Of a stretch of DNA of 64,000 nucleotides, positions 1 to 49,706 are shown piece by piece. A program made the position numbers and the translations under genes. Source of the stretch: a virus; the IMG/VR virus record IMGVR_UViG_3300042305_002533, positions 32,001 to 96,000 of that record, one strand, 5' to 3'. Numbering within the stretch: the stretch's first letter is position 1; every line of letters begins with the position of its first letter. Under the pieces are notes generated by a model, which saw only the letters and a list, made by a program, of their open reading frames with translations, had not been told where the DNA came from and made no database searches.

Positions 1-3000
1 GACCCTAACTCGCCCGCACAACCCATCAAAGCCCCATATGAGCTTGTTTATAACGTAATCAAAGGCGTCATCAGTTCAGAAGTGCCTAACAACCGGCACG
101 CCATTCCGATGATGAACTTCTTTGCACGGCATATTCGAAAGACGCGCCTGCAAAACCGATTTGTGCGGTTACCGTTCCTTGAAGACCCCGAGGCGCTCGG
201 CGAAGAGCAGGGCGTGTTCCCCATCTTCAAGGCTGCCCGGAATGCCGAAGCGTTGAACGCGATGCAGCGCCAGGTGTCGGCGCAGACTGGAGAGTCCGGG
301 CCAGTTTGGAACATGCTGCAGCAAATCCTCTCCATGGTTTACATGGAGATCGCCATGATCCCCAATCCAGCGGCGGTGCTCGTAGAGCTCAACACCGCTG
401 CTGCGGGCCCGCGCCAGGATGGAAAGATCATCGGCGTTTTGAGCAATAATTCTCCGGTGCAAACGACGCCTACGACTTCTGCATCCGGCGCGTCGCCCGG
501 TATAGTCGCTGGAAGTGCGCAAGACACGCGCACCGCCTTGGAGATTTTACGGGGTACGACGCCGGCGAGCCCCACGGTAACGCCCACCGCCGCTCCCGCT
601 GCCCCAGCGCCCGCGCCGGCCGCAGACGCCGCAACAACGGGAACCCCCGCCTCAACGTCGGCCGAGGGGGGCGCCCCGCCCACGCCCCCATTTCAAGGCA
701 TTAATCCAAATACCCCCATTCGTCTCGCGCAGTATTTCGTAAAGCCTCAGTTCCTCTTTGCTGTTCCGCCACATTGCAACGTCATCTTTCCCTCGATGGT
801 CGATGCATGGACATACGATGAGCCGTATCTGACGCAACCTACGCGCGTGTATGTCAACGACTCCGTGATGACGCAGGCGCTTCGCGCTAACGGGCCTAAC
901 CGCCACTTTATTCTGCACGCGCTAACTGTCGCCTTCCCGGAAGAGGCAGACGCGTTGATGCACCATAAAGCTGGCGGCGACACCAACACAGAAACCACAC
1001 AGGCTACTGCCGGAAATCTTGAGTCTGGCAAGAACCTGTTGATCTGGCCTGAAGAGTATTACAAGGGGCCTGTCACCGAGAAACTGGACCTCCCGCCGTG
1101 GTTTCAGATGCTGCGGCAGTTTGCCAACTCGCAGCCTGCGCCCGGAACTCCAGGAGCTACGGCGCCCGGAACGACAAGCCCAGCAGCAGGGGGTGCTGGA
1201 AGCCCCACGGGCGGCGGGCCCGCGACGCCAACGCCCTTGGCGCCTGGAACGGGCGTTGTCATCCCCCCGACCATTACAGAGGCGCGGCGCGGCAATCCGA
1301 TTGGGCGGCAAGAAGCTCAGGAAAATTTTGCTTATCGGTGGCGCATGACTCCGGAAACTCAGCGGATTGGGGATACCAAACGCGTACAGGTCGATGGGAG
1401 TGCGACCTTTGGCGAGTTGGGGGAGCCTGTAAACGGGCGATACCAGTGGGAACCCGGCGACGCTTTAAAGGTGTTGGCCGCGCATTTGATTGAAAGGTTT
1501 CCCAACGCCTTTGATCACGGCGGTTACAAGCGCCCATTTGCCAGGCAGCCAACTGCCCCTCAACCGCCAAGAAAACGGGTAGGCGACATGCACATTCAAG
1601 GCCGCGCTATCGACATGATGTGCAAGCGGAAAGTTAATCCGCCCGGTACTCGGTTGCGCGGCATGCCCGATCTAGAAAACGTTAACCCCGCCGCTGAATA
1701 TCTTGTTCAAAACGCCGACGTTTTTGGAGTACAGTTAGTTGTCTGGGCCCGCTCTGAATGGTCCGCAAGAGGTGCGCCCGGGCGTAGGTACGCGCATTAC
1801 ACAAATGACCCTCAAAGAGAGAGCATGGACCATTTTGACCATATCCACCTTGACTTAAATTTGGCGGGGGCGCGGGGTGAATTACCTTTTTACCAAAATA
1901 ACCGACATCTCCTTCCTGTGCGACAACGTCGCCCACAACGCCGCAATGGCCAGGAGCCCGTAGCGCCTACAGGGCCGCGCCCGCTTCCAGTATTGCGCCC
2001 GCCGCGTCGGCCAGGAGAAAGCACTTCAACCCCGACGCGACCGGCGACGACGCCCGCCCCAGGAACCGCAACGGACGCGGCCAATAGGACCGTCGCCACA
2101 CAACCGGCCTACACGCCGGGGACGCCTGCGCCTGCGCAGAATGCCCCGGCTTCGCCCATACCGGCAACTCAAGCGCCTACCGCCGTAGACGCCGAAACGC
2201 TTGAGCGCTCTGCTGACTCTTTTCAGCAACTCTTCCGGCTGTACGCACAATACGAATTTTTACGCCGAAGGTATATGCAGCGGCAAGCTGCAGTTCAGAT
2301 GAAATTCAATCCGTACATCGTGCCCGGGTTTCCGTCGATGCTCTTTGACTCAATGCGAACCCGCTTCCACATGGTCGGCTACATCCAGGCTGTCTCACAC
2401 TCGGCGAGCGCTGCGGGCGGAGGCAACATCTCAACCTCGGTGCAGATGACGTGCTGCCGGACCTTGCCCGAATTCATCAACGACGTGCGTGCTGACGCTG
2501 AGCGTTTTCGTAGCCGGGTAACCGCTGCGCCTGCGGAAATTATTGACCAGATCCGCGAGCGCATGCAGGACGAGGACAACGCCGAAGCGTTTTACCGCCG
2601 CCTCTTTTATGGCAACGGCCCCCGCGCCGGCAACGCGCCTACAGCTTTCCGTTGGACGGAGGCCATGGGCTACAGCCGAGGGCTTTTGACCGAAGACATC
2701 TATGTCCGAGGCGAATCGGTGGCGGTCACGACAGCCCGCGCGCAAACCGTACAAAATGAAGAACAGAACGAAGTGGCGGCTACGACCGCCCCGGGAAATA
2801 CAGCGCCGCCTACTAACACTTCAAACGGAACGACCGCGCGCCTGCAACAAGCAGCCGCCGGCGCAAACGGCGCGTTTACTACGACGCCGCCTGGGAATGC
2901 GGCACCCACCGGCGTAGGCCTCAATTTTGATGTAAACGCCCCCAACCCCCCGGCCCAGAACACCCCGGCCCAGCAGGCAAATCGTCAGCAAGTAACGCAC

Positions 3001-3522: not shown

Positions 3523-4217
3523 CCCCGGCAAAATCCCTCGACCTTGAACTTTGGCGGGCATGGAAACAGATGCCGACGCCTCAGAACCTGGAGGCGCTGA
3601 TCAAACAGCTAAACCCGGTGCTGCAGCGCGAGATGATGCGGTGGTCCGGCATTGTCCCAAAGTACGTGCTGGAGAACGAAGCAAAAAAGCTCGCCATCAA
3701 AGCGTGCGAAACCTACAACCCCAACGCGGGGGCCGCTTTAGCGACGCACGTCACCAACCAGCTTCAAAAGTTGTCCCGCATCGCATACCAACGTCAAAGT
3801 TCGATGCTTGTGCCTGAGCAGCAGCGCTTGACGTTCAACCGCTACAACGCGGCCATGCGCCACCTTGAAGACCTGAACGGTCGCAAACCGACAATTAATG
3901 ACGTCGCAGACTATTTGGCCATCAAGCCAAAAGCGCTACAGAAGATCGTTGAGAACGTTGGGCGGCAGGAACTGATTGAATCCGGCGAAGGGCCGCAGTT
4001 CATTCAACACGCCGAGAGCGACGTGATTGATCTGGCCTACGGCGATATGACGCCGATGCAGAAGAAGATCTTCGAGATGCGTACGGGGTACAATCACACC
4101 CCGATCGCCAAGAGCGCCAAGGAGATCATGAAGGCGCTCAATATTACGCAGAGCCAGTTGAGCTACCAATTATCCGCCATCAAGACTTTGCTAGAGCGGG
4201 CGCAGAGACTACGCTAG
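3519..4217 (+). CDS. Phage sigma-factor-like protein (sigma70 family, FliA/WhiG-like size)
   Basis: Region 2-like AIKACETYNPNAGAALATHV, region 3-like LNGRKPTINDVADYL, C-terminal region 4-like HTH (MTPMQKKIF...SAKEIMKALNITQSQLS). Confidence 0.7.
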   Translation: MTPAKSLDLELWRAWKQMPTPQNLEALIKQLNPVLQREMMRWSGIVPKYVLENEAKKLAIKACETYNPNAGAALATHVTNQLQKLSRIAYQRQSSMLVPEQQRLTFNRYNAAMRHLEDLNGRKPTINDVADYLAIKPKALQKIVENVGRQELIESGEGPQFIQHAESDVIDLAYGDMTPMQKKIFEMRTGYNHTPIAKSAKEIMKALNITQSQLSYQLSAIKTLLERAQRLR

Positions 4218-5498: not shown

Positions 5499-5951
5499 AT
5501 GGCACGCTACGATCTTCATATCCAGCTGGTCGACCCCAGCGAGCAGACGTTTGGCGCCAATTTCAGTTTTGGCGTAGCCAACCCCATCTTGGTGACGGGC
5601 TTTCAGGCCCTCGTAAACCGCTGGATGAAAATTTTCATGACCCCCAAAGGCTCGCACCCCGTGCGGCGCACCGAGGGGACTGAGTTCCCCTACCTGTTGG
5701 GCTCGAACGTCACAGACATCCCGTCGTTGGAAGCGACCGTGGCCGAGTACATCGACGACGCCACGCAGCAGGTTCAGGCGGTCGACCGCATGTCCCCCAA
5801 CCTGACAAACGATCAGCGCCTGCGGGCTGCGGCGCTTCTTCAATTCAACGCCGTAGACGCGTCGAGTATCGAGTTCTGGGTAGAGCTAACCAATCAAGCG
5901 AATCAGCGCATGCGAGTGCTGATCCCCTATCTGGTGACCCCAAATGGCTGA
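5499..5951 (+). CDS. Baseplate wedge protein, T4 gp25-like
   Basis: 150 aa; MTPKGSHP..TEGTEF resembles the gp25 T-x-x-G-x-x-P-x-x-G motif; directly upstream of a baseplate J-like gene. Start moved to ATG at 5499. Confidence 0.65.
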   Translation: MARYDLHIQLVDPSEQTFGANFSFGVANPILVTGFQALVNRWMKIFMTPKGSHPVRRTEGTEFPYLLGSNVTDIPSLEATVAEYIDDATQQVQAVDRMSPNLTNDQRLRAAALLQFNAVDASSIEFWVELTNQANQRMRVLIPYLVTPNG

Positions 5952-17829: not shown

Positions 17830-18848
17830 ACATGATCGACTTTTACAACGACCCAGGCCACGCGACGCTCCGCCACCTTCTACAGCGCTCCCCGGGAGCG
17901 GCTGAAATGCTCAAGACCGCCGAGCTCGAAGACTTCAACCGTGACCTGCCGGACTCGGCTTTTGCCTGGCAGTCAAAGCGCCTGTACCCGGTGCATACGC
18001 CTGAGCACGCGGCTGTCTCCTACCTCTACGCAAAGCACGCCTCGGCGCGCACTCCGCGAGAGGTTCTCACCTTCATCAAGGAGGCTCTCGACATCTACGG
18101 CGTCGAGGAAGAAGCCTTGGCTGAAGTGCAGATCAAGGAGGCCGCGCTCGACGAAGACGAGTGCCTCTTCCCGCAGTCCCGCACGTATCCCGTACGCGAC
18201 GCCGACGAAGTGAAGACTGCTGAGGAGAAGCTCCTCGCCCAGGCCGCGAAGCTTCGGCCTGAGACGCGGGCGGACGCCTTTACCCGTCTTGCGAAAGCCG
18301 CCAGCTTTCACGGCGTGAACTTGCGCGAGGACTCCTACAAGTACGCAGGCCTGACGTACACCGACCGAACACGCCTCGTGGATTCGCTACGCGCTCGCGC
18401 CGCTGCGACAAAGGAGGCCGAACTCAGCGCCAAGTACGCGGCGCTGGCGACGAGCGTCGCGTACGATCGCACCAGCCTGCGTAGCCGCTCCGCCCGCGTG
18501 AAGCTGGCAGAAGCTATCGGGACGCTCGATGAGCGCGCCGGCCTTCTGAAGCATTACGATCGCGATCTGGAAGACCCTATTCGTGCGGTGTTCAACACGA
18601 CAAAGATCGCGGCTGCGGACGACATCGATCTCGGCGGGGGTACGGTCGTGTCGGCGGCCTCGCTCGCGGCGCTTCCGCCGACGTTCTTCAGCGACCTCTT
18701 CGGGCCGGACATCGTGAAGGAGATCGCGCCCGCAGGTCAGGTCGATCCTGCCGCGCTCCAACAAGTCGTCGTTACCTTCCCCGCTGACATGAAGCAGCAA
18801 CTCGCCCAGGCGCTCAAGAGCTCGGGCGTGCCGATGGCGCGGATGTGA
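17826..18848 (+). CDS. Putative head-associated protein rich in K-x-A motifs
   Basis: KTA, KHA, KEA, KAA, KLA, KIA motifs; two related repeats (AFAWQSKRLYPVH / CLFPQSRTYPVR); strong C/G-ending codon bias. Confidence 0.6.
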   Translation: MNMIDFYNDPGHATLRHLLQRSPGAAEMLKTAELEDFNRDLPDSAFAWQSKRLYPVHTPEHAAVSYLYAKHASARTPREVLTFIKEALDIYGVEEEALAEVQIKEAALDEDECLFPQSRTYPVRDADEVKTAEEKLLAQAAKLRPETRADAFTRLAKAASFHGVNLREDSYKYAGLTYTDRTRLVDSLRARAAATKEAELSAKYAALATSVAYDRTSLRSRSARVKLAEAIGTLDERAGLLKHYDRDLEDPIRAVFNTTKIAAADDIDLGGGTVVSAASLAALPPTFFSDLFGPDIVKEIAPAGQVDPAALQQVVVTFPADMKQQLAQALKSSGVPMARM

Positions 18849-18852
18849 TCGT

Positions 18853-19536
18853 ATGTCTGCCATCGCGGTCCTTAAAGACCCTCAAGTTCTCCCGTCTGTA
18901 GCCTGGGCTGCGACCAAAAAACTGTTCGGGCCCTCGGTCGCCGCATGGGAGTTTGAGACCATTCGTCTTGAGCTCCAGCGCCGAGGTGTTGAGGTTGACG
19001 AGAGTCTCGCCGCCAAGATCTTCGGGGCCATGACCATCGAGATCACCAACGACTGGACCTTCGACCACGACGTGCTCTTTGCCTTCGCGCTCTCCTGCTG
19101 CGGGGTGCCAAGCAGCGGCGACGGCATTCACCACCCCACGCCGGAGCAGCTCTGTTGGGCGATTCACGACATCCACGCCATCACCGGGAAGCCCATTACG
19201 GACGACGAGGGGTTTGACCCTGACACCATCGACCCGGCAATCGGGGTTCTGCTCCACGATGACGGTTACGTCGTCACGCCCGATGAGCTCTCCTTCGCGC
19301 AAGACGCGCTCGACAAGATCAATCGTTACGGCGCCCTGAATGACATCAAAAAAGAAGTGCAGGACGCCTGGAAGGTCGTATCGAAGCTGCCCGTAGACAG
19401 CCTCAAAAAGCACCTCAGCGAACTTGATGACGAGCCTGCCGAGATCCAGATTCGACGCCTGGGCGACTGCCGGTTATATGTAGCAGAGCGCCAACTGCGT
19501 CGAGCCAAACAACATGCCCTCCTTAACGAGCAATGA
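18853..19536 (+). CDS. Hypothetical protein upstream of terminase
   Basis: 227 aa, overlaps the terminase start; function not recognisable. Confidence 0.65.
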   Translation: MSAIAVLKDPQVLPSVAWAATKKLFGPSVAAWEFETIRLELQRRGVEVDESLAAKIFGAMTIEITNDWTFDHDVLFAFALSCCGVPSSGDGIHHPTPEQLCWAIHDIHAITGKPITDDEGFDPDTIDPAIGVLLHDDGYVVTPDELSFAQDALDKINRYGALNDIKKEVQDAWKVVSKLPVDSLKKHLSELDDEPAEIQIRRLGDCRLYVAERQLRRAKQHALLNEQ

Positions 19537-21157
19537 CGGCGCAGAACTTCGCCGTACCCGATCTGAGCTAGCCCGCGCCCTCCTTCGGATCGACGGTAAG
19601 CCTGTCAACCTCGATGACTACCCGATGTTCCTCGCCATCTACGATGGCGGGTACAAGCGGACTCTCTTGAAGACCTCCCGACAGGTGGGCAAGTCGACGA
19701 CCCTCTCAAACTTCTCCGTCGCTGAGTCTATCGCCGAGCCGCACTTCAAGACCTTCTTCATCTCACCCTCGCAGGAGCAGACGCACAAGTTCTCAACGGA
19801 GCGCGTCGGCAAGACGATCATGTACTCGCCCCTGGTGAAGAAGCACTTCATCGGAGACTCCGCGAGTAACCGCGTCATGGTGCGCTCTTTCAAGCGCGGG
19901 TCTACGATCTATTTCAGTTATGCCGAAGACGACGCCGACCGTTGTCGCGGTATCACGGCTGACCGCTTGTGCCTCGATGAGGTGCAGGACATCAACCTCG
20001 AAGCCGTAATCCCCGTCGTCAAAGAGACCATCGCCAACTCGGAGTACGCGTACGAGATGTACTGCGGCACGCCGAAGACGATGGAAAATGGCATCGAGAT
20101 CATGTGGAAGTCGTCCACCAAGAGTGAGTGGGCGATGAAGTGCGAGGGCTGCAGTCGCTTCTCGGTAATCGTGAGCGAAACGCAGCTTGGTAAAGAGGGG
20201 CCGATTTGCACCAAGTGCGGCAAAGGGCTGAACCCCCGCTTCGGCGTGTGGATCGACACCAACCGGGAAGTCGACGCCAAGACCAAGGGCTTTCACATCT
20301 CCCGCGCCATCATGCCGAAATCGGTGCCGATCTGTTGGCCCGAAGGTCCGCAACGTGAGAAGGCCAAAGAAAAATGGGCCGAGGTCCTCGACAAGCTGGA
20401 AGGCCCGGGGGCCTACCCGCTGTCGATGTTCCGCAACGAAGTTCTGGGCATCAGCGACTCCGAAGGCGTACGCCTTCTGACAAAAGAAGACCTCGACACC
20501 ATGTGCGACGGCCCGGACATCTCGCCCGTGCCGACGCACCAGAACATGGCGGACGTGTCAAAAGTCTCTGCGGGATTTGACTGGTCCGGGGGCGGCACGG
20601 AAATAAAGTCGCGCACTGTACTGACCATCCAGGGGCAGCTGACCAACGGCCGGATCAGGATTTTGTATTTCAAGATCTTCCCCGGGACCTCACCCCTCGA
20701 AGAGCTGAATGAGATAACACAAATTGTAAAAAACTATGACACGCGCTTCCCGATGTTCATGGGCGGTGACGCCGGCGAAGGCAACATGAACATGGACTCG
20801 CTGCGGAACCGATTTCAGAAGCCCCAGCGGATTCTGAAGATCCGCTACGTCGGCACGCAGAATACGTACGTGCAGTGGAACTCCGTCGGCGGCTTTTACA
20901 CGTTGCACCGAACGCCCGCGATTGACTCAATGATGACCAACTTGAAGATGGGGAAGTACCAGTTCCCCGCAAACAAGAAGGTCATGGACGTGGCGTTCAA
21001 CGACATCTTGAACGAGCACGTCGAAGTAACGACGCAGGGGCGGAAGCGCTGGGATCACGCGTCCAATAAGCCCGATGACTTTTTGCACGCACTCGTGTTT
21101 GGCCGTTTGGCGCTTCAGGTGAGCACCGGCGAGCTGAACCTGGGGAGTGCGTTTTAG
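19514..21157 (+). CDS. terL: Terminase large subunit (lambda GpA-like)
   Basis: Walker A SRQVGKST, Walker B LCLDEVQD, GTPKT coupling motif, CxxC..CxxC finger, nuclease GFDWSGG and PDDFLHA. Confidence 0.88.
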   Translation: MPSLTSNDGAELRRTRSELARALLRIDGKPVNLDDYPMFLAIYDGGYKRTLLKTSRQVGKSTTLSNFSVAESIAEPHFKTFFISPSQEQTHKFSTERVGKTIMYSPLVKKHFIGDSASNRVMVRSFKRGSTIYFSYAEDDADRCRGITADRLCLDEVQDINLEAVIPVVKETIANSEYAYEMYCGTPKTMENGIEIMWKSSTKSEWAMKCEGCSRFSVIVSETQLGKEGPICTKCGKGLNPRFGVWIDTNREVDAKTKGFHISRAIMPKSVPICWPEGPQREKAKEKWAEVLDKLEGPGAYPLSMFRNEVLGISDSEGVRLLTKEDLDTMCDGPDISPVPTHQNMADVSKVSAGFDWSGGGTEIKSRTVLTIQGQLTNGRIRILYFKIFPGTSPLEELNEITQIVKNYDTRFPMFMGGDAGEGNMNMDSLRNRFQKPQRILKIRYVGTQNTYVQWNSVGGFYTLHRTPAIDSMMTNLKMGKYQFPANKKVMDVAFNDILNEHVEVTTQGRKRWDHASNKPDDFLHALVFGRLALQVSTGELNLGSAF

Positions 21158-21159
21158 CC

Positions 21160-21190
21160 AAAAAAACACGCAGCGTTTTACCGCTGCGTG
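21160..21190 (-). terminator. Intrinsic terminator closing the cassette array
   Basis: Minus strand CACGCAGCG-GTAAAA-CGCTGCGTG followed by T7. Confidence 0.85.
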
Positions 21191-21340
21191 CCTCCCAGGC
21201 TTCTCGCCTTACCTGGAATGGCGGCTATCTTATGGGGGCAAGGCCCGAGAGATATTGCTTCGACAGGCAATCCCAGAACGATTAAATCGCCGGGCGGTCT
21301 CTGCGTGGTGACTCTCGGGGTTTGACCACACTTGAAGGTC
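21160..21340 (-). ncRNA. Candidate ~180-nt structured non-coding RNA
   Basis: Lies between a cassette promoter and a terminator; no ATG at the position used by the sister cassettes; helices TTGACC/GGTCAA, CCCGAGAG/CTCTCGGG, ATTGC/GCAAT, CCAGG/CCTGG. Confidence 0.5.
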
Positions 21341-21345
21341 AAGTT

Positions 21346-21372
21346 CTTATACCAGAAAAGGCCCTGCCTTTT
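21346..21372 (-). promoter_or_regulatory. Cassette promoter copy 1 (A-tract-N15-GGTATAAG)
   Basis: AAAA-15 nt-GGTATAAG, same spacing in four copies. Confidence 0.75.
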
Positions 21373-21440
21373 GGCCAAAAGAAACCGCCCCCTTGGACGC
21401 GCCGAACGGCGCAGGGCGGTGCCTCCAGGACGGAGGGCTT
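21369..21440 (-). repeat. Inter-cassette repeat copy 1 (bulged hairpin terminator plus TTTTGGCCAAAA palindrome)
   Basis: Nearly identical to 21804-21875; ACCGCCC..GGGCGGT stem followed by TTCTTTT on minus strand. Confidence 0.9.
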
Positions 21441-21774
21441 ACAAGGACCGAAGCCAGCCCTTGAGGTACGCGGCGTACTCCGGCCGCGCGCAGATGCGGG
21501 ACGCCTTCACGTCCCGCGAGAAAACCGCCGCCAGCGGCTTGAGCGCCTCTTGCGGCAGAAGAGCGGCCGCCGCCGCCCGGTACTCCTCCGGGTGGGCTTC
21601 CACCCAGAGGAGGTCGGGGTCCGAAGAGTCGAACCCCTCCCCGCCATGCTGGGGCACACCCATCATGGTGAGGCTGTGCGCCAACCGGGTCCATTCCCGA
21701 TTGGCGGTGAACTCCTCGACGTCCTTCCGGAAGTCGAGGAGCCATGCGTTAACGCCGTCAGGCATAGCGATCAT
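21439..21774 (-). CDS. Small cassette-borne hypothetical protein
   Basis: 111 aa; ATG 5 nt after TATAAG, stop adjoins the repeat. Confidence 0.75.
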   Translation of the reverse strand: MIAMPDGVNAWLLDFRKDVEEFTANREWTRLAHSLTMMGVPQHGGEGFDSSDPDLLWVEAHPEEYRAAAAALLPQEALKPLAAVFSRDVKASRICARPEYAAYLKGWLRSL

Positions 21775-21779
21775 ACTGT

Positions 21780-21807
21780 CTTATACCCGACGCCCCCTAT
21801 CGTTTTT
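21780..21807 (-). promoter_or_regulatory. Cassette promoter copy 2
   Basis: AAAAA-15 nt-GGTATAAG-ACAGT-ATG. Confidence 0.8.
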
Positions 21808-21875
21808 GGCCAAAAGAAACCGCCCCTTTGGACGCGCCGAACGGCGCAGGGCGGTGCCTCCAGGACGGAGGGCTT
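21804..21875 (-). repeat. Inter-cassette repeat copy 2
   Basis: Nearly identical to copy 1. Confidence 0.9.
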
Positions 21876-22342
21876 CAGACGTTTGCTGCCCGCTCGGCCT
21901 GCTCGGCCAGGCTCAGCAGCTCGGACCTGACGTAGGCGAGGTCTCTGTACTCCCCGCCCCATGACGGCGACTGCCCAGCGTCCCACGGCGGGGGCGCGTC
22001 CCCCATGTGGGCACAATCAAAGCCGACGGTGACGCCCCCGTCCCCGTCGGCTTCGAACTCGGCGTACGTGCACCCGCCGTGGGCCTCGATAGCCCAGAGC
22101 AGCCGGTTTTCGCACGGGGGGGCAGGCGCCCCGTCTTCGCCCGTGCAGGCCGCCTGGGCCCACGGGTGGGCCCGGGGCACGGTGATGTACCCGCACCAGT
22201 GCCCGCGGTAGCTCCGCCGGGCGCGCACCGGGAAGCCCCGGTAGACGGCCTCCACCAGGGAGACCTCCGGGCCATCGGCCCGGTCCAGGGCGTCGACGGG
22301 GTTGAGGTTGTTGTTCGTATCCCCAGAAACATGGGTGTCCAT
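21875..22342 (-). CDS. Small cassette-borne phage hypothetical protein
   Basis: 155 aa; GHWCGY..HP, HGGCTY and GFDCAH motifs of a type common in phage hypotheticals; exactly fills the cassette. Confidence 0.8.
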   Translation of the reverse strand: MDTHVSGDTNNNLNPVDALDRADGPEVSLVEAVYRGFPVRARRSYRGHWCGYITVPRAHPWAQAACTGEDGAPAPPCENRLLWAIEAHGGCTYAEFEADGDGGVTVGFDCAHMGDAPPPWDAGQSPSWGGEYRDLAYVRSELLSLAEQAERAANV

Positions 22343-22347
22343 ACTGA

Positions 22348-22375
22348 CTTATACCCGCCGCCCCTACCGTTTTTT
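22348..22375 (-). promoter_or_regulatory. Cassette promoter copy 3
   Basis: AAAAA-15 nt-GGTATAAG-TCAGT-ATG. Confidence 0.8.
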
Positions 22376-22442
22376 GACCAAAAGAAACCACCCCGTTGGA
22401 CGCGCCGAACGGCGCGGGGTGGTAGATCCAACTCAGGACGGG
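22372..22442 (-). repeat. Inter-cassette repeat copy 3 (diverged)
   Basis: Outer stem is ACCACCCC..GGGGTGGT (compensatory change); inner TTGGACGCGCCGAACGGCGC and CAGGACGG retained. Confidence 0.85.
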
Positions 22443-22787
22443 TTAGATCTTCTCCAGGACGGCCAGGCCCCAACCGGGGTAGGCCTCCGTCTGGAGGGTG
22501 ACGTCCGCGAGGGGCACCGGGCGCCCCTCGCGGACTGCCGTTGCGATCTCCTCAGGCGTGGCGTCGTCGTAGACGCTCACGTCGAGGCGACCGTCGGACA
22601 GCCGCATGACCGAGGCACAGCCCCGGATGGTGCGGCGACCGATGACGAGCACCTTGCTGCCCTTGGCAGTCAAGGCTGCTCGCCACCTCTGGTGGGACGG
22701 GACTGTTTCGGCGGTATGCCCGCCGCCCCAGATCCCGTCCCACCATCGGTCTGCGACCGTGAATTTGGAGGCATCAAAGTGGTCCAT
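22443..22787 (-). CDS. Small cassette-borne hypothetical protein
   Basis: 114 aa; ATG 5 nt after TATAAG, stop adjoins repeat 3. Confidence 0.75.
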   Translation of the reverse strand: MDHFDASKFTVADRWWDGIWGGGHTAETVPSHQRWRAALTAKGSKVLVIGRRTIRGCASVMRLSDGRLDVSVYDDATPEEIATAVREGRPVPLADVTLQTEAYPGWGLAVLEKI

Positions 22788-22792
22788 ACCTC

Positions 22793-22820
22793 CTTATACC
22801 CGCCCAACCCCCCCCTTTTT
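22793..22820 (-). promoter_or_regulatory. Cassette promoter copy 4
   Basis: AAAAA-15 nt-GGTATAAG-GAGGT-ATG. Confidence 0.8.
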
Positions 22821-23377
22821 CACGCCGCGAAAAACGGCCTCGCCACCTTATCAAACACGAACTTCCCCCGCTCGATGTCCGCCATGGCCCGGTGCTCCTG
22901 GAGATTCGGGCCGCCCAGGGCGTCGTAGACCTGATGCAGCCCGAACTTCGGCAGCCCCATCTTGATCGCCGCCACCGCCGAGAAAGACTGGATGTCGATC
23001 GCTCGACGGTCCCACGTGGGTTCGAGGTCAAAGTACGCCAGTTCCGCCTTGATCATGTCACAGTCGAAGCGAACGTTCTGCGAGCAGAGGGGCACGTTCC
23101 CCAGAAGGGAAGCGTACTGCCGCCACAACTTAAGGGCCGTTTCCGTCCCAGCCCGGGGGGCTTTCTCCCAGTCGGGGTTGTCGAAGTACCCGTTGATCTT
23201 CATCGCGACGGGGCTCCACGGGGTCATCGAGAGGTCCACGCGCTGCCGGAGCACGAAGCTCGACATCACGGTCATCTCCTGGGGCCGAACGTCCACCAGT
23301 TGAACAGCGGCCTCGATGACCCGGTTGACGCCCGCCTTGAGTCCGGTTGTTTCAGTATCGACGAATGCGATGAGCAT
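22820..23377 (-). CDS. DnaQ-like DEDDh 3'-5' exonuclease
   Basis: FVDTETTGL, QNVRFD, HRAMADI. Confidence 0.9.
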   Translation of the reverse strand: MLIAFVDTETTGLKAGVNRVIEAAVQLVDVRPQEMTVMSSFVLRQRVDLSMTPWSPVAMKINGYFDNPDWEKAPRAGTETALKLWRQYASLLGNVPLCSQNVRFDCDMIKAELAYFDLEPTWDRRAIDIQSFSAVAAIKMGLPKFGLHQVYDALGGPNLQEHRAMADIERGKFVFDKVARPFFAA

Positions 23378-23392
23378 GTTTGCCTCTTGTAG

Positions 23393-26300
23393 TCAGGGGG
23401 CCCGAGTCCGCTCGGGCATTTCAAAACCATCTGGATCACGGAGATCGTCGAACTGCTCTTCCTCGGTGTAGCCGTCGAACTGCGGTTCGGGTGTCGGCGC
23501 CGGAAGCGCCTTCACATACTTCTCGAAGTCCATGACTTCGCCGTAGCTGGGCCCGAGCTCTACGTCCCATCGATAAGGCACCGGCATCCATGGGAACGCC
23601 TCAGCAACACGGTTTGTGCCGTACTGCGTGAAAATGTCCCGCACCTGATGCGCGTACTTCTTGGGGACCTGAAAGCCAATCGAGTCGTGAACTGTCAGCA
23701 GTAACCGCCCGCGCAAGTCATTTTCAATCACAGGCGCAAGCCAACAAAGCACGCTGAGCACGATGTCGGAGTTTGTGCCCTGTACCTTGAAGTTGATCGC
23801 CCGGCGCTCAGCTTGCGCCCGGAGTTCATTCGGAGCGCCGGCGCCAATAAGAAAGCGACGACGGCGGCCATTGAAGGCCTCGACCATGCCAAAGGTGCGA
23901 AGCTCCCACTTCGTGCGGTCCATGAAGGTTCGGATCGTCGGAAACTTCGTGAAGAGAAGCTCCTGAATCTTCTTGGCGAACTCATGGGAAATGCCGGCAA
24001 TCTCCGCAATCTTCTTGATGCCGGCGCCGTAAAGCATTCCGAAGACAAGGCGCTTGATGTTGTCGCGCAGCGCCTTCAGGCGCTTGCCGTAGGCCTTATC
24101 GGGCAAAAGCCCATCCTTGCCCTTAAGAAAGTCCTCGTAAGACCACTCGTGGTCGTCATCAATACCCGCGTTCACAAGGGCGATACGCCGCGACTCGCCG
24201 CTAAGCCCCGCCGCTACGAGCTTGGGGTTCAGACACTCAGAGCCGAAGAAGCAGTGCGCGTCCAGGCCGTCCTGAAGCGCCGCAATCAGCGCCTGATCTT
24301 TGGAGTAAGCTGAGTAGATTGAAACCTCGGCGCCTTTAGCGTCGGCGTTGCCGAAACAATAACTGTCGTCATCGGGCACAAAAAGCTTCTTGCAGTTCAC
24401 GCCCTCAAAGACCGGGCGCCCCTCGTCGCTGAGAACCAGAGCGCCTTTCAGATCTCGTAGCGCGCCGATCAGGCCCTTCGGTATGTTCTGGGCGTTAAAC
24501 CGGGCGTCGCCCACCTGGACCGCCGAGGACAAGCGGCCCGTAGACGTCGAGGTCAAGCCATAGCCCGCGTGAAGCTTGCCGTCCCCGAAGTAAGTAGCCA
24601 GCGCCTCGATATTCGCGAAGAAAGTGTTCTTGCCCTTGTCCGCCTTCTTATGCGCTAGGAGCAAGTTGGCTAACGGGCACTTGTAGCGCGCGACGAGGCT
24701 TTTCATCACGCCGTCGCTGACCTGAATGGCGCCTTTGGCGGTATACGCCTGAGCTTTGTAGCTGATGCGCTTCCCGTCAAAGTTCACCAGCCCCGGATAC
24801 TCTGCAGCAAGCTTGTCCGCCGCTTCCGGGTCCGGATGAATGTAGCCGTCACCAAAGAACAGTTGCCCCAGGCGCTTCGTCGACCCGAGCTTGAATTCGT
24901 CACCACCCGCCAGTTCAAAGATCTGCTGCCGGGTGTGCTCAACGGTCTGCCCCAAAGACTCCGCGCCCCAAGTACAGTAATTCAAATCAACCCGCATGCC
25001 GTTGTATTCGATCTTCGCAAGCTCACGCTGACGCGGCAGATAGTCGTCCTGCACAAGCTTGCGAAGAGGGCTCGGCGTCGGACAAAGCCGCTGAACCGTA
25101 AAGGGGTCCCGCCGCCCGAGCTTGACCGCCTCCTCAATTTTGTTGCGCAACTGCGACAGCGCGAAGTCTTCCTCATGCATTCGCTGCACTTGAATTACCG
25201 CGATCCGCCTTGTCGCGTCGGCGTCCACGCACGCATAGAACATCAGCTCTTGAAGCGGGATGCTCTCAAACCCGCCGGTCTTTTTCTTCTTGGACGGCGC
25301 CTTATCCGCCTTCGTTTGAAACTCTCCACTTTTCTTTGCGTTCAAGACCAACTGAATCTGATCTTTTATCTCAGCCCACTTCGGGTCTTTGACCGCCGTC
25401 TCCAGAGTCTTGACCTGAAACCGCTGCGTCTTCAGAACCTTCTTCTTCAACAACGTATCAAGCGCCGCCGCAACGGCCGGGGGCAACCGCAGCGTCTTCC
25501 CTTCGGTTGAAGGCTGTGCCGCGTCGACGCGCTCGTTGGCTTCTTCGAGCATGCCCTGCAGCCGGTCTTCGTAACCGGCGAGTTCGGGCAAGAACTGCTT
25601 TGTGAGCATTTTCAGCGAATAGAACTTTTTCTTGTCCTCTTCGAGAACATGCTCGGCGAGCAGCGCGTCCCACGCAACGTTGCCTACGTCGCCCTGGGGC
25701 CAGCCCAACCGCCAGAAAACTTTGTAGTCGTACTTGCCATTAAACCAGATAATCGGCTTGCCGCTGGTCAGAAGGCGCTTGATCTCCTCATACGCCGCCG
25801 CCGGGTCGTACATGTCGTTTCGCGGGTGCCAGAGCGCAACGGACGCCGCCTTGCTCGTTGCCCACGCAAACGAGACGGACAAAAGCTTTGTGCCGTCCCA
25901 ATTGGGGTGAAGGGTATTGGTCTCCGTATCGAAAGAGATCTTCCAAGACATCGGCGGGATATCAAACTCGGAGTAGCCGATAACGTGATCGACAAGCTTG
26001 CGGATCTCTTCAAGCGTCTTTGGGTAAACGAAGCCCTTCTCGATCTCTTCGCGGCTCTTTACCCGGATAAGCGACGAAGTCGCCAGCCGCGCCGCGCGCT
26101 CAATGTCTGCAAGCAGCGTATTGAATTTGCCGTCTTGCGTGCCGTGCGCCTTCAAGGACCGTGTGAAAACCACGTTCACTTTGACGCCCGCGACATCGAC
26201 GTCTTCGAATATCCGGTTGAGCGCCTCGTCTTCGCTGCGCACCGAAACGCCCAGAGCCACAAGCGCCGCGACCCCGCAGGCAATAACGACGATCTTATTC

Positions 26301-26758
26301 TGCCGCCCGGCGGCTTGCCGGCGCTGTGCTGTACGGTGAACGAGGCGCCGCAAGTTATCCGCGCAGGTAAGGATGATTTTCTTATTGGGGTTTTCTACCG
26401 CGCACTTTACGGCGTACGTGTAAAGCACTTGCAGTGCCCCAAATTCACGCCGTGAAAGCACACGATCAACCGCCGTACGCAGCACGCGGCCTGCCGCGTC
26501 GTCAAAGGTTTCGTGACGTGTCTTAGGCAGGCCTGCGCCCTTACCGCCTATCAACACAAGGCGGGGTGGCGGCGCCGGAGCGTCGCCTACAACGATGATG
26601 TCGGCGCCTTCCGGGCCTCGATCATCTGGGTGGAAATGAGTGCCATTGAATGCCGGGCACCCGTTGCAACCAGCGCCCGCCTTGGCGCGCCACTCAGGAC
26701 GCGCGCAAAGCTGGCAGCTGAACGCCTCGGGCGGTTCAGACAGCGTTACCGTGGGCAT
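23393..26758 (-). CDS. polA: Family A DNA polymerase with N-terminal uracil-DNA-glycosylase-like domain and 3'-5' exonuclease
   Basis: UDG-like IIVVGDAP/YAVKC; Exo FDTET, FNGKYD, YACVDAD; TGRLSS; motif A ADAKGAE; motif B KRLVFGMLYG; NFKVQG; motif C TVHDSI. Confidence 0.93.
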   Translation of the reverse strand: MPTVTLSEPPEAFSCQLCARPEWRAKAGAGCNGCPAFNGTHFHPDDRGPEGADIIVVGDAPAPPPRLVLIGGKGAGLPKTRHETFDDAAGRVLRTAVDRVLSRREFGALQVLYTYAVKCAVENPNKKIILTCADNLRRLVHRTAQRRQAAGRQNKIVVIACGVAALVALGVSVRSEDEALNRIFEDVDVAGVKVNVVFTRSLKAHGTQDGKFNTLLADIERAARLATSSLIRVKSREEIEKGFVYPKTLEEIRKLVDHVIGYSEFDIPPMSWKISFDTETNTLHPNWDGTKLLSVSFAWATSKAASVALWHPRNDMYDPAAAYEEIKRLLTSGKPIIWFNGKYDYKVFWRLGWPQGDVGNVAWDALLAEHVLEEDKKKFYSLKMLTKQFLPELAGYEDRLQGMLEEANERVDAAQPSTEGKTLRLPPAVAAALDTLLKKKVLKTQRFQVKTLETAVKDPKWAEIKDQIQLVLNAKKSGEFQTKADKAPSKKKKTGGFESIPLQELMFYACVDADATRRIAVIQVQRMHEEDFALSQLRNKIEEAVKLGRRDPFTVQRLCPTPSPLRKLVQDDYLPRQRELAKIEYNGMRVDLNYCTWGAESLGQTVEHTRQQIFELAGGDEFKLGSTKRLGQLFFGDGYIHPDPEAADKLAAEYPGLVNFDGKRISYKAQAYTAKGAIQVSDGVMKSLVARYKCPLANLLLAHKKADKGKNTFFANIEALATYFGDGKLHAGYGLTSTSTGRLSSAVQVGDARFNAQNIPKGLIGALRDLKGALVLSDEGRPVFEGVNCKKLFVPDDDSYCFGNADAKGAEVSIYSAYSKDQALIAALQDGLDAHCFFGSECLNPKLVAAGLSGESRRIALVNAGIDDDHEWSYEDFLKGKDGLLPDKAYGKRLKALRDNIKRLVFGMLYGAGIKKIAEIAGISHEFAKKIQELLFTKFPTIRTFMDRTKWELRTFGMVEAFNGRRRRFLIGAGAPNELRAQAERRAINFKVQGTNSDIVLSVLCWLAPVIENDLRGRLLLTVHDSIGFQVPKKYAHQVRDIFTQYGTNRVAEAFPWMPVPYRWDVELGPSYGEVMDFEKYVKALPAPTPEPQFDGYTEEEQFDDLRDPDGFEMPERTRAP

Positions 26759-47900: not shown

Positions 47901-49706
47901 ATGCCTACGCCCATCTCCGTTGGTCACTTCTTGATCAACGACGTCTTGCCCGAGACCCACAAAATCACCGGGCCGGTCACGAACAAAAACGTGCACGATC
48001 ACGTCGTCGGTCTGGCCAAAGCTAACCCCGCCGAGTACGTGAACGTCATCACGGCGCTTAAGCGGCGAGGCGACGAAATTGCCACACTTGAAGGTGTGAG
48101 CGTCGGCCTTGACGACATCGCACCCGATTACAAAGCACGCGACGCGATCTTGAAACCCGCGATTGCGAAGATTGAAAAAGCCAAGACCGAGAGCGAGCGG
48201 GAAAAGCTCGTCATCGAGGCGCAGAACGCGCTACTGGAGTACACAAAAAAGCACCCCGGCTCGATGACGCATATGGCACTTTCCGGAGCGCGCGGAAACC
48301 CCGCACAGCTCATGAAGATCGTCGCGACGCCGCTGGCGGCGGTGCACCCGAAGCACGGTATCGAGCGGATACCCATCAAGCGGAGCTACTCCGAAGGGTT
48401 GACCGCCGCCGAGTACTGGTCGACCGTGCCTGAGGTTCGCGCCAATAACGTCGCTACCGTGGTGTCGGTCTCCGAGCCCGGAGAAGTCGCCAAAGTCCTC
48501 GTCAACAACATGATCGGGACGACTGTCACGCGGCCGGATTGCGGAACAAAAAACGGCGTGCACATGCGCCTCGACGACGGCCACATTCTGGACCGGTACG
48601 CACAAGCCAGTCACGGAGTAGCCCGCAACACCTTGATTACCCCCCGGCTCGTACAGGAGCTTAAAAGCAAAAACATCCAAGAGCTCCTCGTGCGCTCACC
48701 GATGACGTGCGCCGCTTCGCATGGCGTCTGCCAGCATTGCCAAGGGCACAGCGAAAAGGGGCAGCTTCACGGGATTGGCGCTCCGGTGGGCGTGCGTGCC
48801 GCACAGGCCCTGGCGGAGCCTTTGACACAGATGGCGCTCTCCTCGAAGCACGCCGTACTAACAATCAAAGAAAAAAAGTTGGAGCCTACGGGCCTCAAAG
48901 GTTTCCGCCAATACCTTGAAATTCCAAAAGCGTTCAAATACGAAGCGGTACTCGCCCCGCAAGCCGGGCTTGTAACAAAAATTGAGAAGGCGCCGCAAGG
49001 CGGGCACTATGTTGTCGTTGGTGCTGAAAAGCTTTACGTCCGCCCAGAACTCAGCGTTACCGCGCACGTCGGGATGCACGTAGAGCACGGAGACGCTTTG
49101 ACCAACGGTGTGCCTAATCCGCAAAAAATCGTCGCCGCAAAAGGCCTCGGGGCGGGCCGCGCATATTACGTCGGGGCCATTCACCGGGTCTACCAAGGCG
49201 AAGGCATAAACTTGGATAGGCGTCACCTGGAGCTCTTGGCCAAGAGCGAGATGAACCACGTCCGCCTTCTAGACGCCGACCCAGAACACCCCGAGTTTCT
49301 CAAAGGCGACGTCATTAACTACAACGCCTTCCGAGAAGCGTACTCCAAAGACGTCACACACATGCCGCTCTCCGAAGCTATAGGAAAGCGGCTGGGGCAA
49401 GAGATACTACACCACACGGTCGGAACCCCAATAACGCCGGCTCTTGTAAACGAGCTGAAAAGCAAAGGCGTTCGCGAGGTCCTTGTAAACAAGCGGCTCC
49501 CTCCGGTAGAATTTGTGATGAAACCATTCACCATGAACCCGCTACACGAAAGTGATTGGATGGCGCGGCTGGCGCACCGGTACCTCAAGGGGTCCATTCA
49601 GCAGGCGGCGCAATTTGGAGAAACGTCCGACATTCATGGCGCCCACCCAATTCCGGCTTACGCTTACGGAGCCGAACTTCGCCACGGCCCGTCGGGCGGA
49701 TACTGA
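47901..49706 (+). CDS. RNA polymerase beta' C-terminal subunit
   Basis: GVSVGLDDI, SGARG, SYSEGL, DCGT, RSPMTC..GVCQHC, AAQALAEPLTQM, RRHLELL. Confidence 0.93.
   Translation: MPTPISVGHFLINDVLPETHKITGPVTNKNVHDHVVGLAKANPAEYVNVITALKRRGDEIATLEGVSVGLDDIAPDYKARDAILKPAIAKIEKAKTESEREKLVIEAQNALLEYTKKHPGSMTHMALSGARGNPAQLMKIVATPLAAVHPKHGIERIPIKRSYSEGLTAAEYWSTVPEVRANNVATVVSVSEPGEVAKVLVNNMIGTTVTRPDCGTKNGVHMRLDDGHILDRYAQASHGVARNTLITPRLVQELKSKNIQELLVRSPMTCAASHGVCQHCQGHSEKGQLHGIGAPVGVRAAQALAEPLTQMALSSKHAVLTIKEKKLEPTGLKGFRQYLEIPKAFKYEAVLAPQAGLVTKIEKAPQGGHYVVVGAEKLYVRPELSVTAHVGMHVEHGDALTNGVPNPQKIVAAKGLGAGRAYYVGAIHRVYQGEGINLDRRHLELLAKSEMNHVRLLDADPEHPEFLKGDVINYNAFREAYSKDVTHMPLSEAIGKRLGQEILHHTVGTPITPALVNELKSKGVREVLVNKRLPPVEFVMKPFTMNPLHESDWMARLAHRYLKGSIQQAAQFGETSDIHGAHPIPAYAYGAELRHGPSGGY

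What the first reader, a model, noticed from the sequence alone, without database searches (positions are those of the whole stretch)
21160..21345. Last cassette holds a structured ncRNA candidate instead of a protein gene
Seen: same promoter, but GACC rather than ATG 5 nt after TATAAG. About 180 nt can fold into a 5' hairpin (TTGACC/GGTCAA), an 8-bp stem CCCGAGAG/CTCTCGGG closing a junction with two hairpins (CCCGG-CGAT/ATCG-CTGGG and ATTGC/GCAAT), a CCAGG/CCTGG hairpin and a terminator. The overlapping 66-aa ORF starts upstream of the promoter -10 element and stops in the terminator loop. Inference: an early phage small RNA (decoy, antitoxin mimic or regulator) that I cannot assign to a family.
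Basis: partly seen in the sequence, partly recalled or inferred. Interest (0 to 1): 0.72.

Follow-up and report, generated by a model that had tools for sequence, protein, structure and literature searches.

The report
ORF-less phage cassette, probable small RNA
The last unit in a row of self-contained phage gene cassettes has a normal promoter and a strong terminator but about 180 bases of non-coding sequence between them, so it probably makes a small RNA; neither a special fold nor any relative could be shown.

Summary
The sequence features exist as described, on the minus strand. There is a full copy of the phage promoter (AAAA-N15-GGTATAAG, 21372-21346), no ATG at the leaderless position, and a strong intrinsic terminator (21190-21160) ending 3 nt from the terL stop.

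The non-coding reading is supported. All 5 overlapping ORFs score below the 5th percentile of true coding sequence, with GC3 0.56-0.62 against 0.84-0.88 in the neighbouring cassette ORFs. The 66-aa ORF has no credible homologue. A natural strain carries a 1-nt insertion that changes the length of 4 of the 5 ORFs.

The "structured RNA" claim is not supported beyond chance. The folding z-score is -2.85 with the terminator but -0.88 without it. Only the 8-bp stem and one hairpin are well populated. An 8-bp stem occurs in 9% of shuffles.

There is no Rfam match, and no homologue in relatives, so covariation cannot be tested. Phages with about 90% TerL identity have a stub, another gene or nothing in this slot. 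No RNA run was found.

Both ends of the unit are generic cassette modules. The first ~20 transcribed nt recur in an mRNA leader elsewhere in the genome.

Verdict: a plausible orphan phage small RNA, or a vestigial cassette. The scan has noted similar ORF-less cassettes in other phages.

The parts
21346..21372 (-). Promoter of the phage-specific class: AAAA (21372-21369), 15-nt spacer, GGTATAAG (21353-21346).
   Evidence: There are 7 GGTATAAG copies in the 130,678-bp genome, all on the minus strand and all with an A-tract 14-16 nt upstream. The same motif occurs in relatives. No sigma-70-like site lies in 19000-24000.
21160..21340 (-). Predicted non-coding transcript of about 175-181 nt, from G21340 to the U-run.
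   Evidence: The start is inferred. In 8 cassettes of this genome and its relatives the ATG is exactly the 6th base after TATAAG. In three leaders (genome 17982, L024, L026) a hairpin begins at the 6th-7th base, by my reading. The end is inferred from the terminator. No RNA data exist.
21326..21343 (-). Shared 5' module, CTTG(A)CCTTCAA(NN)GTGTGG. It also opens the leader of an SD-plus-ORF unit at genome position 4218.
   Evidence: local alignment score 22, reached by 1 of 2000 shuffles (8 comparisons made). The unit at 17982 scored 17 (13 of 2000). The alignment has a 1-nt and a 2-nt gap, so the likeness is at nucleotide level and not in a reading frame.
21244..21319 (-). The only well-populated internal fold: an 8-bp stem (21319-21312 with 21251-21244) enclosing the bulged hairpin 21294-21272.
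   Evidence: Pair probabilities are 0.79 and 0.84-0.90. The z-score of this domain alone is -1.82. Both helices are kept in the strain variant of run X5.
21160..21190 (-). Intrinsic terminator: 9-bp G+C-rich stem, 6-nt loop, U7.
   Evidence: pair probability 0.96. It accounts for most of the folding z-score.
21152..21166 (-). Cassette junction motif TTTTTTTGGCTAAAA, abutting and overlapping the terL stop codon (21155-21157 on the plus strand).
   Evidence: It aligns with the TTTCTTTTGGCCAAAA that ends each upstream cassette, and with the terL-proximal junction of L001, L016 and L021.
21178..21378 (-). 66-aa ORF called by a gene finder; judged spurious.
   Evidence: It starts upstream of the promoter box and stops in the terminator loop. 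Its score is -0.145 bits per codon with GC3 0.62. Only itself is found among 5.8 billion proteins. Among 1.84 billion representatives it finds only itself and two long repeat proteins, each repeat 10 of 30 identical. It shortens to 56 codons in the X5 form.
21230..21331 (-). 33-aa GTG ORF, the only overlapping ORF untouched by the X5 changes; judged unlikely to be a gene.
   Evidence: It scores -0.220 bits per codon with GC3 0.58. There is no Shine-Dalgarno sequence before it. The one X5 substitution inside it (21296) falls on a third codon position, which is a test of no power.

Best explanation
This is an accessory cassette of a lake phage that encodes its own multisubunit RNA polymerase. 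Its cargo is RNA rather than protein.

The phage-specific promoter (A-tract, N15, GGTATAAG) should start transcription at about G21340. The intrinsic terminator at 21190-21160 should release an RNA of about 180 nt just before the convergent terL gene.

The RNA opens with a short 5' hairpin module of the kind that this promoter class puts on its leader-bearing mRNAs. It then carries about 105 nt of unique sequence, whose one robust fold is an 8-bp stem enclosing a bulged hairpin. It ends in the generic cassette 3' boundary.

I take it to act in trans as a small regulatory or decoy RNA while this promoter class is active. The partner is unknown.

Shown: promoter and terminator motifs, lack of coding signal, and presence in several lakes. 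Inferred: the start site, that it is transcribed at all, and that the RNA has a function.
For: - The promoter is intact, with the family's A-tract, spacing and box. The same CT-GGTATAAG variant drives a leaderless ORF in L002.
- It has the strongest terminator of the region.
- There is no ATG or GTG at the leaderless position and no SD-plus-start inside.
- All 5 overlapping ORFs score -0.09 to -0.22 bits per codon. The 5th percentile of true coding pieces is +0.01 to +0.05, and the 3 cassette ORFs score +0.29 to +0.36. GC3 is 0.56-0.62 against 0.84-0.88.
- There is no credible protein homologue or family, and no translated likeness to the genome or 18 related loci (best E 0.049 among 10 peptides).
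- The unit is present with 0 differences in contigs of 3 other lake runs from 3 other studies. X4 has an uncovered gap at 21190-21230.
- In a fourth run (X5) the unit has 2 substitutions and a 1-nt insertion. These change the length of 4 of the 5 ORFs, lie outside the two robust helices and leave them intact.
- In X5 the element differs less (2 of 186 plus 1 indel) than the stretches holding the adjacent cassette ORFs (10 of 413 and 27 of 470).
- The neighbouring cassette protein is an orphan too. Lack of relatives is therefore the rule in this array, not a mark against function.
Against: - Without the terminator it folds no better than shuffles (z -0.88). An 8-bp stem is common by chance. No long single-stranded segment stands out as a seed.
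- There is no Rfam match, even at E up to 10.
- No homologue was found by blastn or by a covariance model in 19 related loci, in 4 relatives' records (one a complete 172,885-bp genome) or elsewhere in its own genome. No exact-word match was found in the viral or prokaryote collections.
- Relatives with 85-90% TerL identity have in this slot a degenerate promoter plus about 60 nt (L001, L016), a tiny unit (L021) or nothing (L014, L015). L002, at 80% TerL identity, has a small ORF there. The slot therefore collects cassette debris.
- The first ~20 nt are shared with an mRNA leader, which fits descent from a protein cassette.
- The X5 comparison rests on three changes in one strain.
Confidence: 0.4

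Rival explanations
1. Vestigial cassette. This would be the stub of a former leader-bearing protein cassette that lost its ORF through recombination or deletion between the repeated cassette junctions. It may still be transcribed, but the RNA would have no function of its own. The useful part would be the strong terminator, which walls off the minus-strand accessory array from the convergent terL and late genes.
For: - Both ends are generic cassette modules: the promoter, a 5' module shared with the mRNA leader at genome 4218, and the U-tract plus TGGCYAAAA junction.
- The same slot in L001, L016 and L021 holds still shorter promoter-like plus terminator stubs that lack the A-tract.
- There is no conservation beyond near-identical strains, and folding is not exceptional.
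- The PeSL paper argues that such stem-loops stop spill-over of early ORFan transcription into late virion genes (PMC2839356, passages read).
Against: - The promoter is fully intact, unlike the stubs in relatives.
- There is no trace of a former ORF: no translated likeness and no residual GC3 signal.
- The element is no more variable in strain X5 than the neighbouring ORFs.
- A terminator alone would need none of the ~140 nt before it.
Confidence: 0.35
2. Cis-antisense RNA. Late plus-strand transcripts that run past terL would be fully complementary to this RNA. Duplex formation, or head-on transcription, would then define the 3' end of the late message or limit antisense read-through into the cassette array.
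For: The unit is convergent with terL and ends 3 nt after its stop codon. The scan found no terminator-like site on the plus strand in 19000-24000 (0 of 9 sites), so plus-strand read-through is conceivable.
Against: There is no overlap with the terL coding sequence. The hairpin at 21167-21190 also forms in the plus-strand RNA and might stop this phage's polymerase without a U-tract. Most relatives manage with no such unit. There are no transcript data.
Confidence: 0.1
3. Small protein gene: either the 33-aa GTG ORF (21331-21230), or a leaderless TTG start at 21342 that gives 54 aa.
For: The 33-aa ORF keeps its length in strain X5, and the one substitution inside it is at a third codon position. 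TTG lies 3 nt after TATAAG here and in the unit at genome 4218.
Against: - Coding scores are -0.22 bits per codon for both ORFs, with GC3 0.58-0.59 against 0.84-0.88 in real cassette ORFs.
- There is no Shine-Dalgarno sequence.
- The inferred start site lies downstream of the TTG.
- The TTG frame is cut to 44 codons in X5.
- There are no homologues.
- The likeness to the 4218 leader is not frame-preserving.
Confidence: 0.07

Closest known systems
PeSL (promoter-early stem-loop) cassettes of T4-type phages (Arbiol et al. 2010, PMC2839356, passages read; Comeau et al. 2014, PMC4122927, abstract read)
   Same: Repeated composite terminator-plus-promoter elements flank small orphan accessory genes. 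Each cassette has its own start and stop. Close relatives differ by insertion, loss or replacement of cassettes exactly at these elements.
   Different: The promoter is not sigma-70-like: there is no -35 box, the box ends in G, and there were 0 sigma-70-like sites. Most cassette mRNAs here are leaderless. The phage encodes its own multisubunit RNA polymerase. The cargo of this unit is non-coding. I searched the PeSL paper for 'no ORF' (0 occurrences) and 'empty' (1, about empty heads), so I saw no ORF-less cassette described there.
Trans-acting phage or prophage small RNAs carried as moron-like units with their own promoter and intrinsic terminator (for example anti-sRNAs of EHEC prophages; recalled, no paper read)
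   Same: A stand-alone promoter, a short ORF-less body and a terminator with a U-tail, sitting in an accessory slot of a phage genome.
   Different: No expression data, no target, no seed and no conserved family here. The host is unknown.
Lambda OOP RNA (recalled, no paper read)
   Same: A short terminated transcript convergent with a phage gene.
   Different: OOP overlaps the 3' end of the cII coding sequence. This unit ends 3 nt outside terL.
Early promoters of the giant phage phiKZ, read by its virion RNA polymerase (Wicke et al. 2020, PMC8244752, passages read)
   Same: A -10-like box plus a homopolymer-rich motif about 20 nt upstream, with no -35 box, in a phage with its own multisubunit polymerase.
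   Different: The phiKZ motif is T-rich upstream and AT-rich overall, and no leaderless transcript was detected there. Here the tract is A-rich, the box is GGTATAAG, and 4 of 7 units in the genome are leaderless. Which polymerase reads this motif is unknown. That paper predicted one phiKZ sRNA and could not confirm it by Northern blot.

Membership tests
Any Rfam 15 family | Covariance-model score at or above the family's gathering threshold | tested here: not met
   There were 0 matches in the whole window. At E up to 10 over 21000-21500 there were only two chance-level plus-strand matches, mir-611 (18.3 bits against 90 needed) and Xoo2 (12.8 against 45). There were 0 matches in 8 loci: 6 of relatives and 2 of this genome. 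No tRNA or tmRNA was found.
PeSL-type mobile regulatory cassette | Repeated composite element of terminator stem-loop plus promoter between accessory ORFs | tested here: met
   Three copies of a 91-nt repeat and four promoter boxes are present. Terminator-like sites lie in each repeat.
PeSL-type mobile regulatory cassette | Close relatives differ by cassette gain, loss or replacement at the elements | tested here: met
   The slot next to terL holds 5 different contents in 6 relatives with 80-90% TerL identity. The junction motif is shared.
PeSL-type mobile regulatory cassette | Strong sigma-70-like early promoter (-35 and -10 boxes, AT-rich upstream region) | tested here: not met
   There were 0 sigma-70-like sites in 19000-24000. 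The motif is an A-tract, N14-16, GGTATAAG.
PeSL-type mobile regulatory cassette | Mini-circle formation by recombination between elements | not testable with these tools
   This needs inverse PCR or long reads from infected cells. No joints were seen in the contigs of 4 runs (table 5), which shows nothing either way.
Trans-acting bacterial or phage small RNA | Own promoter, intrinsic terminator with U-tail, no translated ORF | tested here: met
   These are motif-level and statistical results only.
Trans-acting bacterial or phage small RNA | Discrete transcript detected | not testable with these tools
   No RNA holder is listed among 24 runs.
Trans-acting bacterial or phage small RNA | Conserved seed with complementary targets | tested here: inconclusive
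   No homologues exist to define a seed. The best complement in the phage genome is a 14-mer inside the RNA polymerase beta'-C gene, and a match that long arises in 133 of 1000 shuffles. The host genome is unknown.
Cis-antisense RNA of the lambda OOP type | Overlap with the coding 3' end of the convergent gene | tested here: not met
   The U-run ends at 21160 and the terL stop codon is at 21155-21157.
Small protein gene | Start codon in a usable context, genome-typical codon bias, homologues | tested here: not met
   Frame conservation in strain X5 is inconclusive for the 33-aa ORF and negative for the other 4 ORFs.
Coremin-type exonuclease-resistant RNA (xrRNA-C) | 3-4 bp hairpin with YGAD loop, conserved ~10-nt spacer, then a second hairpin of 4 bp or more (PMC6546385 and PMC10520033, passages read) | tested here: not met
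   Checked by eye on the sequence. A 3-bp hairpin with a CGAA loop (about 21265-21256) and a 4-bp hairpin 9 nt later can be drawn. However, only 3 of 10 spacer positions match the published motif, and the drawing competes with the 8-bp stem.

The most novel reading that the evidence does not exclude
The terminator-promoter repeats form a PeSL-like shuffling system in a lineage of large lake phages with their own multisubunit RNA polymerase. The system would move RNA genes as well as protein genes. On this reading the unit is a functional, strain-specific small RNA made by the phage's own transcription apparatus, acting on a host or phage partner, and its 5' hairpin module (shared with the mRNA leader at genome 4218) is a common handle for stability or for a phage protein.
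Probability: 0.25. Interest if true: 0.5.

Novelty: new member of a known kind. Interest (0 to 1): 0.3.

Why it matters
If the RNA is real and functional, it would be a small RNA from an uncultured large lake phage that encodes its own RNA polymerase. Few small RNAs are known from virulent phages. It would also show that mobile promoter-terminator cassettes can carry RNA cargo.

As it stands, the practical value is modest. The 66-aa gene call is most likely spurious. The GGTATAAG promoter class, its leaderless and leader-bearing forms, and the cassette junction motif give a usable transcription grammar for annotating this phage group.

Tried and rejected
**Known RNA families.** Rfam gave nothing at gathering score or at E up to 10, and nothing in 8 loci (6 of relatives, 2 of this genome). 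ARAGORN gave nothing.

**Homologues by DNA**
- blastn against 50,697 phage records: none.
- blastn of 21160-21460 against 18 loci: only the cassette repeat and promoter matched.
- Own genome: only the cassette repeats matched.
- Four relatives' records: 0 of 4 matched; L016's record is not held.
- A single-sequence covariance model (R1) found only itself in the window plus 19 loci and in G000-G004.
- Exact-word scans of viral contigs and genome contigs: 0 matches.
- Near-identical records may be hidden from these collections by design.

**Relatives through the neighbouring gene.** The 111-aa cassette protein has no relative in viral contigs.

**Pseudogene remnant.** tblastn of 10 peptides from all six frames against the masked genome and 18 loci gave a best E of 0.049, which is noise.

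**Protein reading.** Rejected. The two hits are long repeat proteins, with 10 of 30 identities per repeat.

**Targets**
- Word matches of 11 nt or more were 10 observed against 7.3 expected.
- The 14-mer against the RNA polymerase beta'-C gene is not significant (133 of 1000 shuffles).
- A genome-wide RNAduplex scan gave only unrealistic full-length duplexes and was dropped.
- I also tested the idea from another finding that such an RNA mirrors the shared leaders of the phage's own messages. This RNA carries the leader module in the same sense, not antisense.

**Coremin-like knot.** Not met (by eye).

**Expression.** No RNA holder is listed. Parts without contig cover are not used as evidence.

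**Other.** Supplementary files were not opened. The PeSL supplements might list ORF-less cassettes. Structure prediction, fold search, complex prediction and the protein-atlas search were not used, because no credible protein is here.

Full report
**Setting**

The window is bases 32001-96000 of a 130,678-bp IMG/VR virus record estimated 76% complete. The record encodes a large terminase (19514-21157, plus strand) and, on the minus strand, a replication block. That block holds a DNA polymerase (23393-26758) and an exonuclease (22820-23377; RNase_T, PHROG 192). The phage also carries its own multisubunit RNA polymerase: ORF 47901-49706 has Rpb1 domains 4 and 5. Runs that hold the DNA are lake-water metagenomes.

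After the exonuclease come three small minus-strand ORFs of 114, 155 and 111 aa. They have no Pfam family. The 155-aa one belongs to PHROG 2164, of unknown function. The finding follows them, and the convergent terL stop codon comes next.

**The observation**

- GGTATAAG occurs 4 times in the window, all on the minus strand, at 21353, 21787, 22355 and 22800. The expectation is 0.43, and 0 of 100 shuffles reached 4.
- Three of the four are preceded by a repeat of about 70-90 nt, which holds a terminator-like hairpin, a U-tract and TTTTGGCCAAAA.
- The whole genome has 7 GGTATAAG copies, all on the minus strand and all with an A-tract 14-16 nt upstream.
- In 4 of the 7, the ATG is exactly the sixth base after TATAAG. 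The same holds in 4 units of relatives. These mRNAs are therefore most likely leaderless and start at that base.
- The unit in question has AACTT-GACC at that place.
- It ends in a 9-bp G+C-rich hairpin followed by U7 (21190-21160). The U-run stops 3 nt from the terL stop codon.
- The 66-aa ORF runs from upstream of the promoter box to the TAA in the terminator loop.

**Is it coding?**

I built a codon log-odds model from 42 long ORFs of this genome.
- The three cassette ORFs score +0.29 to +0.36 bits per codon, with GC3 0.84-0.88.
- The five ORFs that overlap the element score -0.09 to -0.22, with GC3 0.56-0.62.
- That is below the 5th percentile of true coding pieces of the same length (+0.01 to +0.05).

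The homology searches agree.
- The 66-aa ORF finds only itself among 5.8 billion proteins.
- A full HMMER scan of 1.84 billion representatives finds only itself and two long repeat proteins. Their score comes from 14 and 6 weak repeats, each 10 of 30 identical.
- No SD-plus-start combination lies inside the unit.

I judge the gene call spurious and the unit non-coding.

**Natural variation**

Four lake runs from four other studies were laid on 20900-22900.
- Contigs of X2 (20900-21440) and X3 (20914-21422) cover the unit with 0 differences.
- X4 covers 20971-21189 and 21231-21422, also with 0 differences.
- X5 carries a related strain. In the unit it has G>T at 21296, A>G at 21218 and a C inserted behind 21217. 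It also has C>T at 21364 in the promoter spacer and one change in terL.
- The same strain has 10 substitutions and a 3-nt deletion in the piece that covers the 111-aa ORF.
- It has 27 substitutions and 6 gapped letters in the piece that covers the 155-aa ORF. These include two 3-nt deletions. A 2-nt insertion at 21905 is seen in part of the depth only.

The 1-nt insertion changes the length of 4 of the 5 overlapping ORFs: 66 to 56, 54 to 44, 54 to 59 and 45 to 32 codons. Only the 33-aa ORF is spared. All three changes lie outside the two robust helices, which are kept in the X5 form. This favours a non-coding reading, but it rests on one strain and three changes.

**Is it a structured RNA?**

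This part of the claim fails the tests that can be run.
- The z-score of -2.85 for 21160-21345 is carried by the terminator. Without it, z is -0.88, and 39 of 200 shuffles fold as well.
- The core domain, chosen after the fact, gives -1.82.
- Pair probabilities are high only for the 8-bp stem (0.79), the bulged hairpin (0.84-0.90) and the terminator (0.96). The other three proposed helices have 0.16-0.34.
- A perfect stem of 8 bp or more appears in 45 of 500 shuffles and in 92 of 447 pieces of the window.
- No long single-stranded segment stands out.

**Relatives**

TerL searches gave 9 viral and 9 metagenome loci. Six of them, with 80-90% TerL identity, reach past the terL stop.
- L014 and L015 go straight from the last cassette terminator to terL.
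- L002 has a small Cys-rich ORF with a Shine-Dalgarno sequence.
- L001 and L016 have GGTATAAAAG without an A-tract, about 60 nt, and a terminator.
- L021 has a still smaller unit.

None has the body of this element by any of these searches: blastn, covariance model, four relatives' whole records, exact words in the viral and prokaryote collections, or 50,697 phage records. Covariation therefore cannot be tested. The neighbouring 111-aa protein has no relative either, so orphan status is the norm for this array.

**Both ends are generic**

- The 3' end (U-run, GGC, TAAAA) aligns with the TTTCTTTTGGCCAAAA that closes each cassette, and with the terL-proximal junction of L001, L016 and L021. This looks like the recombination joint of the cassettes.
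- At the 5' end, bases 3-20 after the promoter align with the leader of the unit at genome 4218. That leader continues to GGAGG-N5-ATG and a real ORF.
- The alignment is 18 of 18 aligned letters with two gaps. Its score is reached by 1 of 2000 shuffles, in 8 comparisons. The gaps are 1 and 2 nt, so the likeness is not in a frame.
- Leader-bearing units of this promoter class, here and in relatives with about 50% TerL identity, open with a hairpin at about the sixth base after TATAAG (by my reading).
With the inferred start site it is only 4 bp long.

**What it is**

The best-supported description is an ORF-less cassette: an intact promoter, a generic 5' module, about 105 nt of unique non-coding sequence, a generic 3' boundary and a strong terminator.

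Two readings are nearly level.
- **Functional small RNA, 0.40.** This is favoured by the intact promoter, by the lack of any ORF remnant, and by low divergence in X5 relative to the neighbouring ORFs.
- **Vestigial stub whose terminator insulates terL, 0.35.** This is favoured by the debris in the same slot of relatives, the mRNA-type 5' module and the unremarkable fold.
- **Minor rivals:** a cis-antisense role against plus-strand read-through (0.10) and a small protein (0.07).

**Comparison with known systems**

The array works like the PeSL cassettes of T4-type phages, which are composite terminator-promoter elements that flank orphan genes and mediate their shuffling (PMC2839356, passages; PMC4122927, abstract). 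It is not a member of that family, because the promoter is not sigma-70-like.

The promoter layout, a box plus a homopolymer tract about 20 nt upstream, recalls the phiKZ early promoter (PMC8244752, passages). That paper found no leaderless phiKZ transcripts.

Other agents of this scan have reported ORF-less promoter-terminator cassettes in other phages and also named PeSLs as closest. I had reached PeSLs before that look-up. A coremin-like knot, frequent in their notes on lake phages, is not present here by the published criteria.

**Verdict**

The non-coding reading is well supported. The structured-RNA reading and any specific function are unsupported. Expression is untested. The element is an orphan of modest interest.

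Noticed in passing
window 21326-21343; genome G000 4180-4210 (outside the window) and about 17925-17975: The first ~20 transcribed bases of this unit recur in the 31-nt leader of an SD-plus-ORF unit at genome 4218 (1 of 2000 shuffles). They recur more weakly in the 56-nt leader at 17982 (13 of 2000). All three contain GTGTGG about 15-22 nt after the promoter box. This may be a shared 5' stability or protein-binding module.
   Followed up: partly
window 21152-21166, 21369-21386, 21804-21821, 22372-22389; L016 about 5641-5660; L001; L021: Every cassette ends in a U-tract followed by TGGCYAAAA, and the same motif sits at the terL stop in relatives. It looks like the joint at which cassettes are gained and lost.
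   Followed up: partly
L014 about 1980-2209 (minus strand): In a relative, the same promoter is followed by about 230 nt without a credible gene (a 16-codon ORF at most) before a GGAGA-ATG small ORF. The stretch has two GAGAGAGG boxes. It could be a long leader or another RNA element. It has no Rfam match.
   Followed up: no
window 48082-48095 (plus strand, inside the RNA polymerase beta'-C gene 47901-49706): There is a 14-nt perfect complement to bases 3-16 of the predicted RNA. A match this long arises in 133 of 1000 shuffles, so it is probably chance.
   Followed up: yes
window 21900-22215 in run X5: The 155-aa cassette ORF of a co-occurring strain differs in tight clusters of substitutions (21923-21928, 21956-21966, 22169-22172) and by 3-nt indels, while terL next door differs at 1 of 258 bases. 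This is mosaic or hypervariable evolution of cassette genes.
   Followed up: no
genome G000 17975-17960; L016 about 6035; L021 about 1161: Three leader-bearing units read TATAAG-NNN-ATGTAG. If transcription started 2 nt earlier than inferred, these would be leaderless start-stop mini-ORFs. With the inferred start, the G of ATG opens a 5' hairpin instead.
   Followed up: no
L024 and L026 (record G003, a complete 172,885-bp genome with about 52% TerL identity): The A-tract-N-GGTATAAG promoter class is kept in distant relatives, with 2 copies each in G003 and G004. Both precede a 5' hairpin, GGAGG and an ATG. The motif is thus a family-wide promoter.
   Followed up: partly
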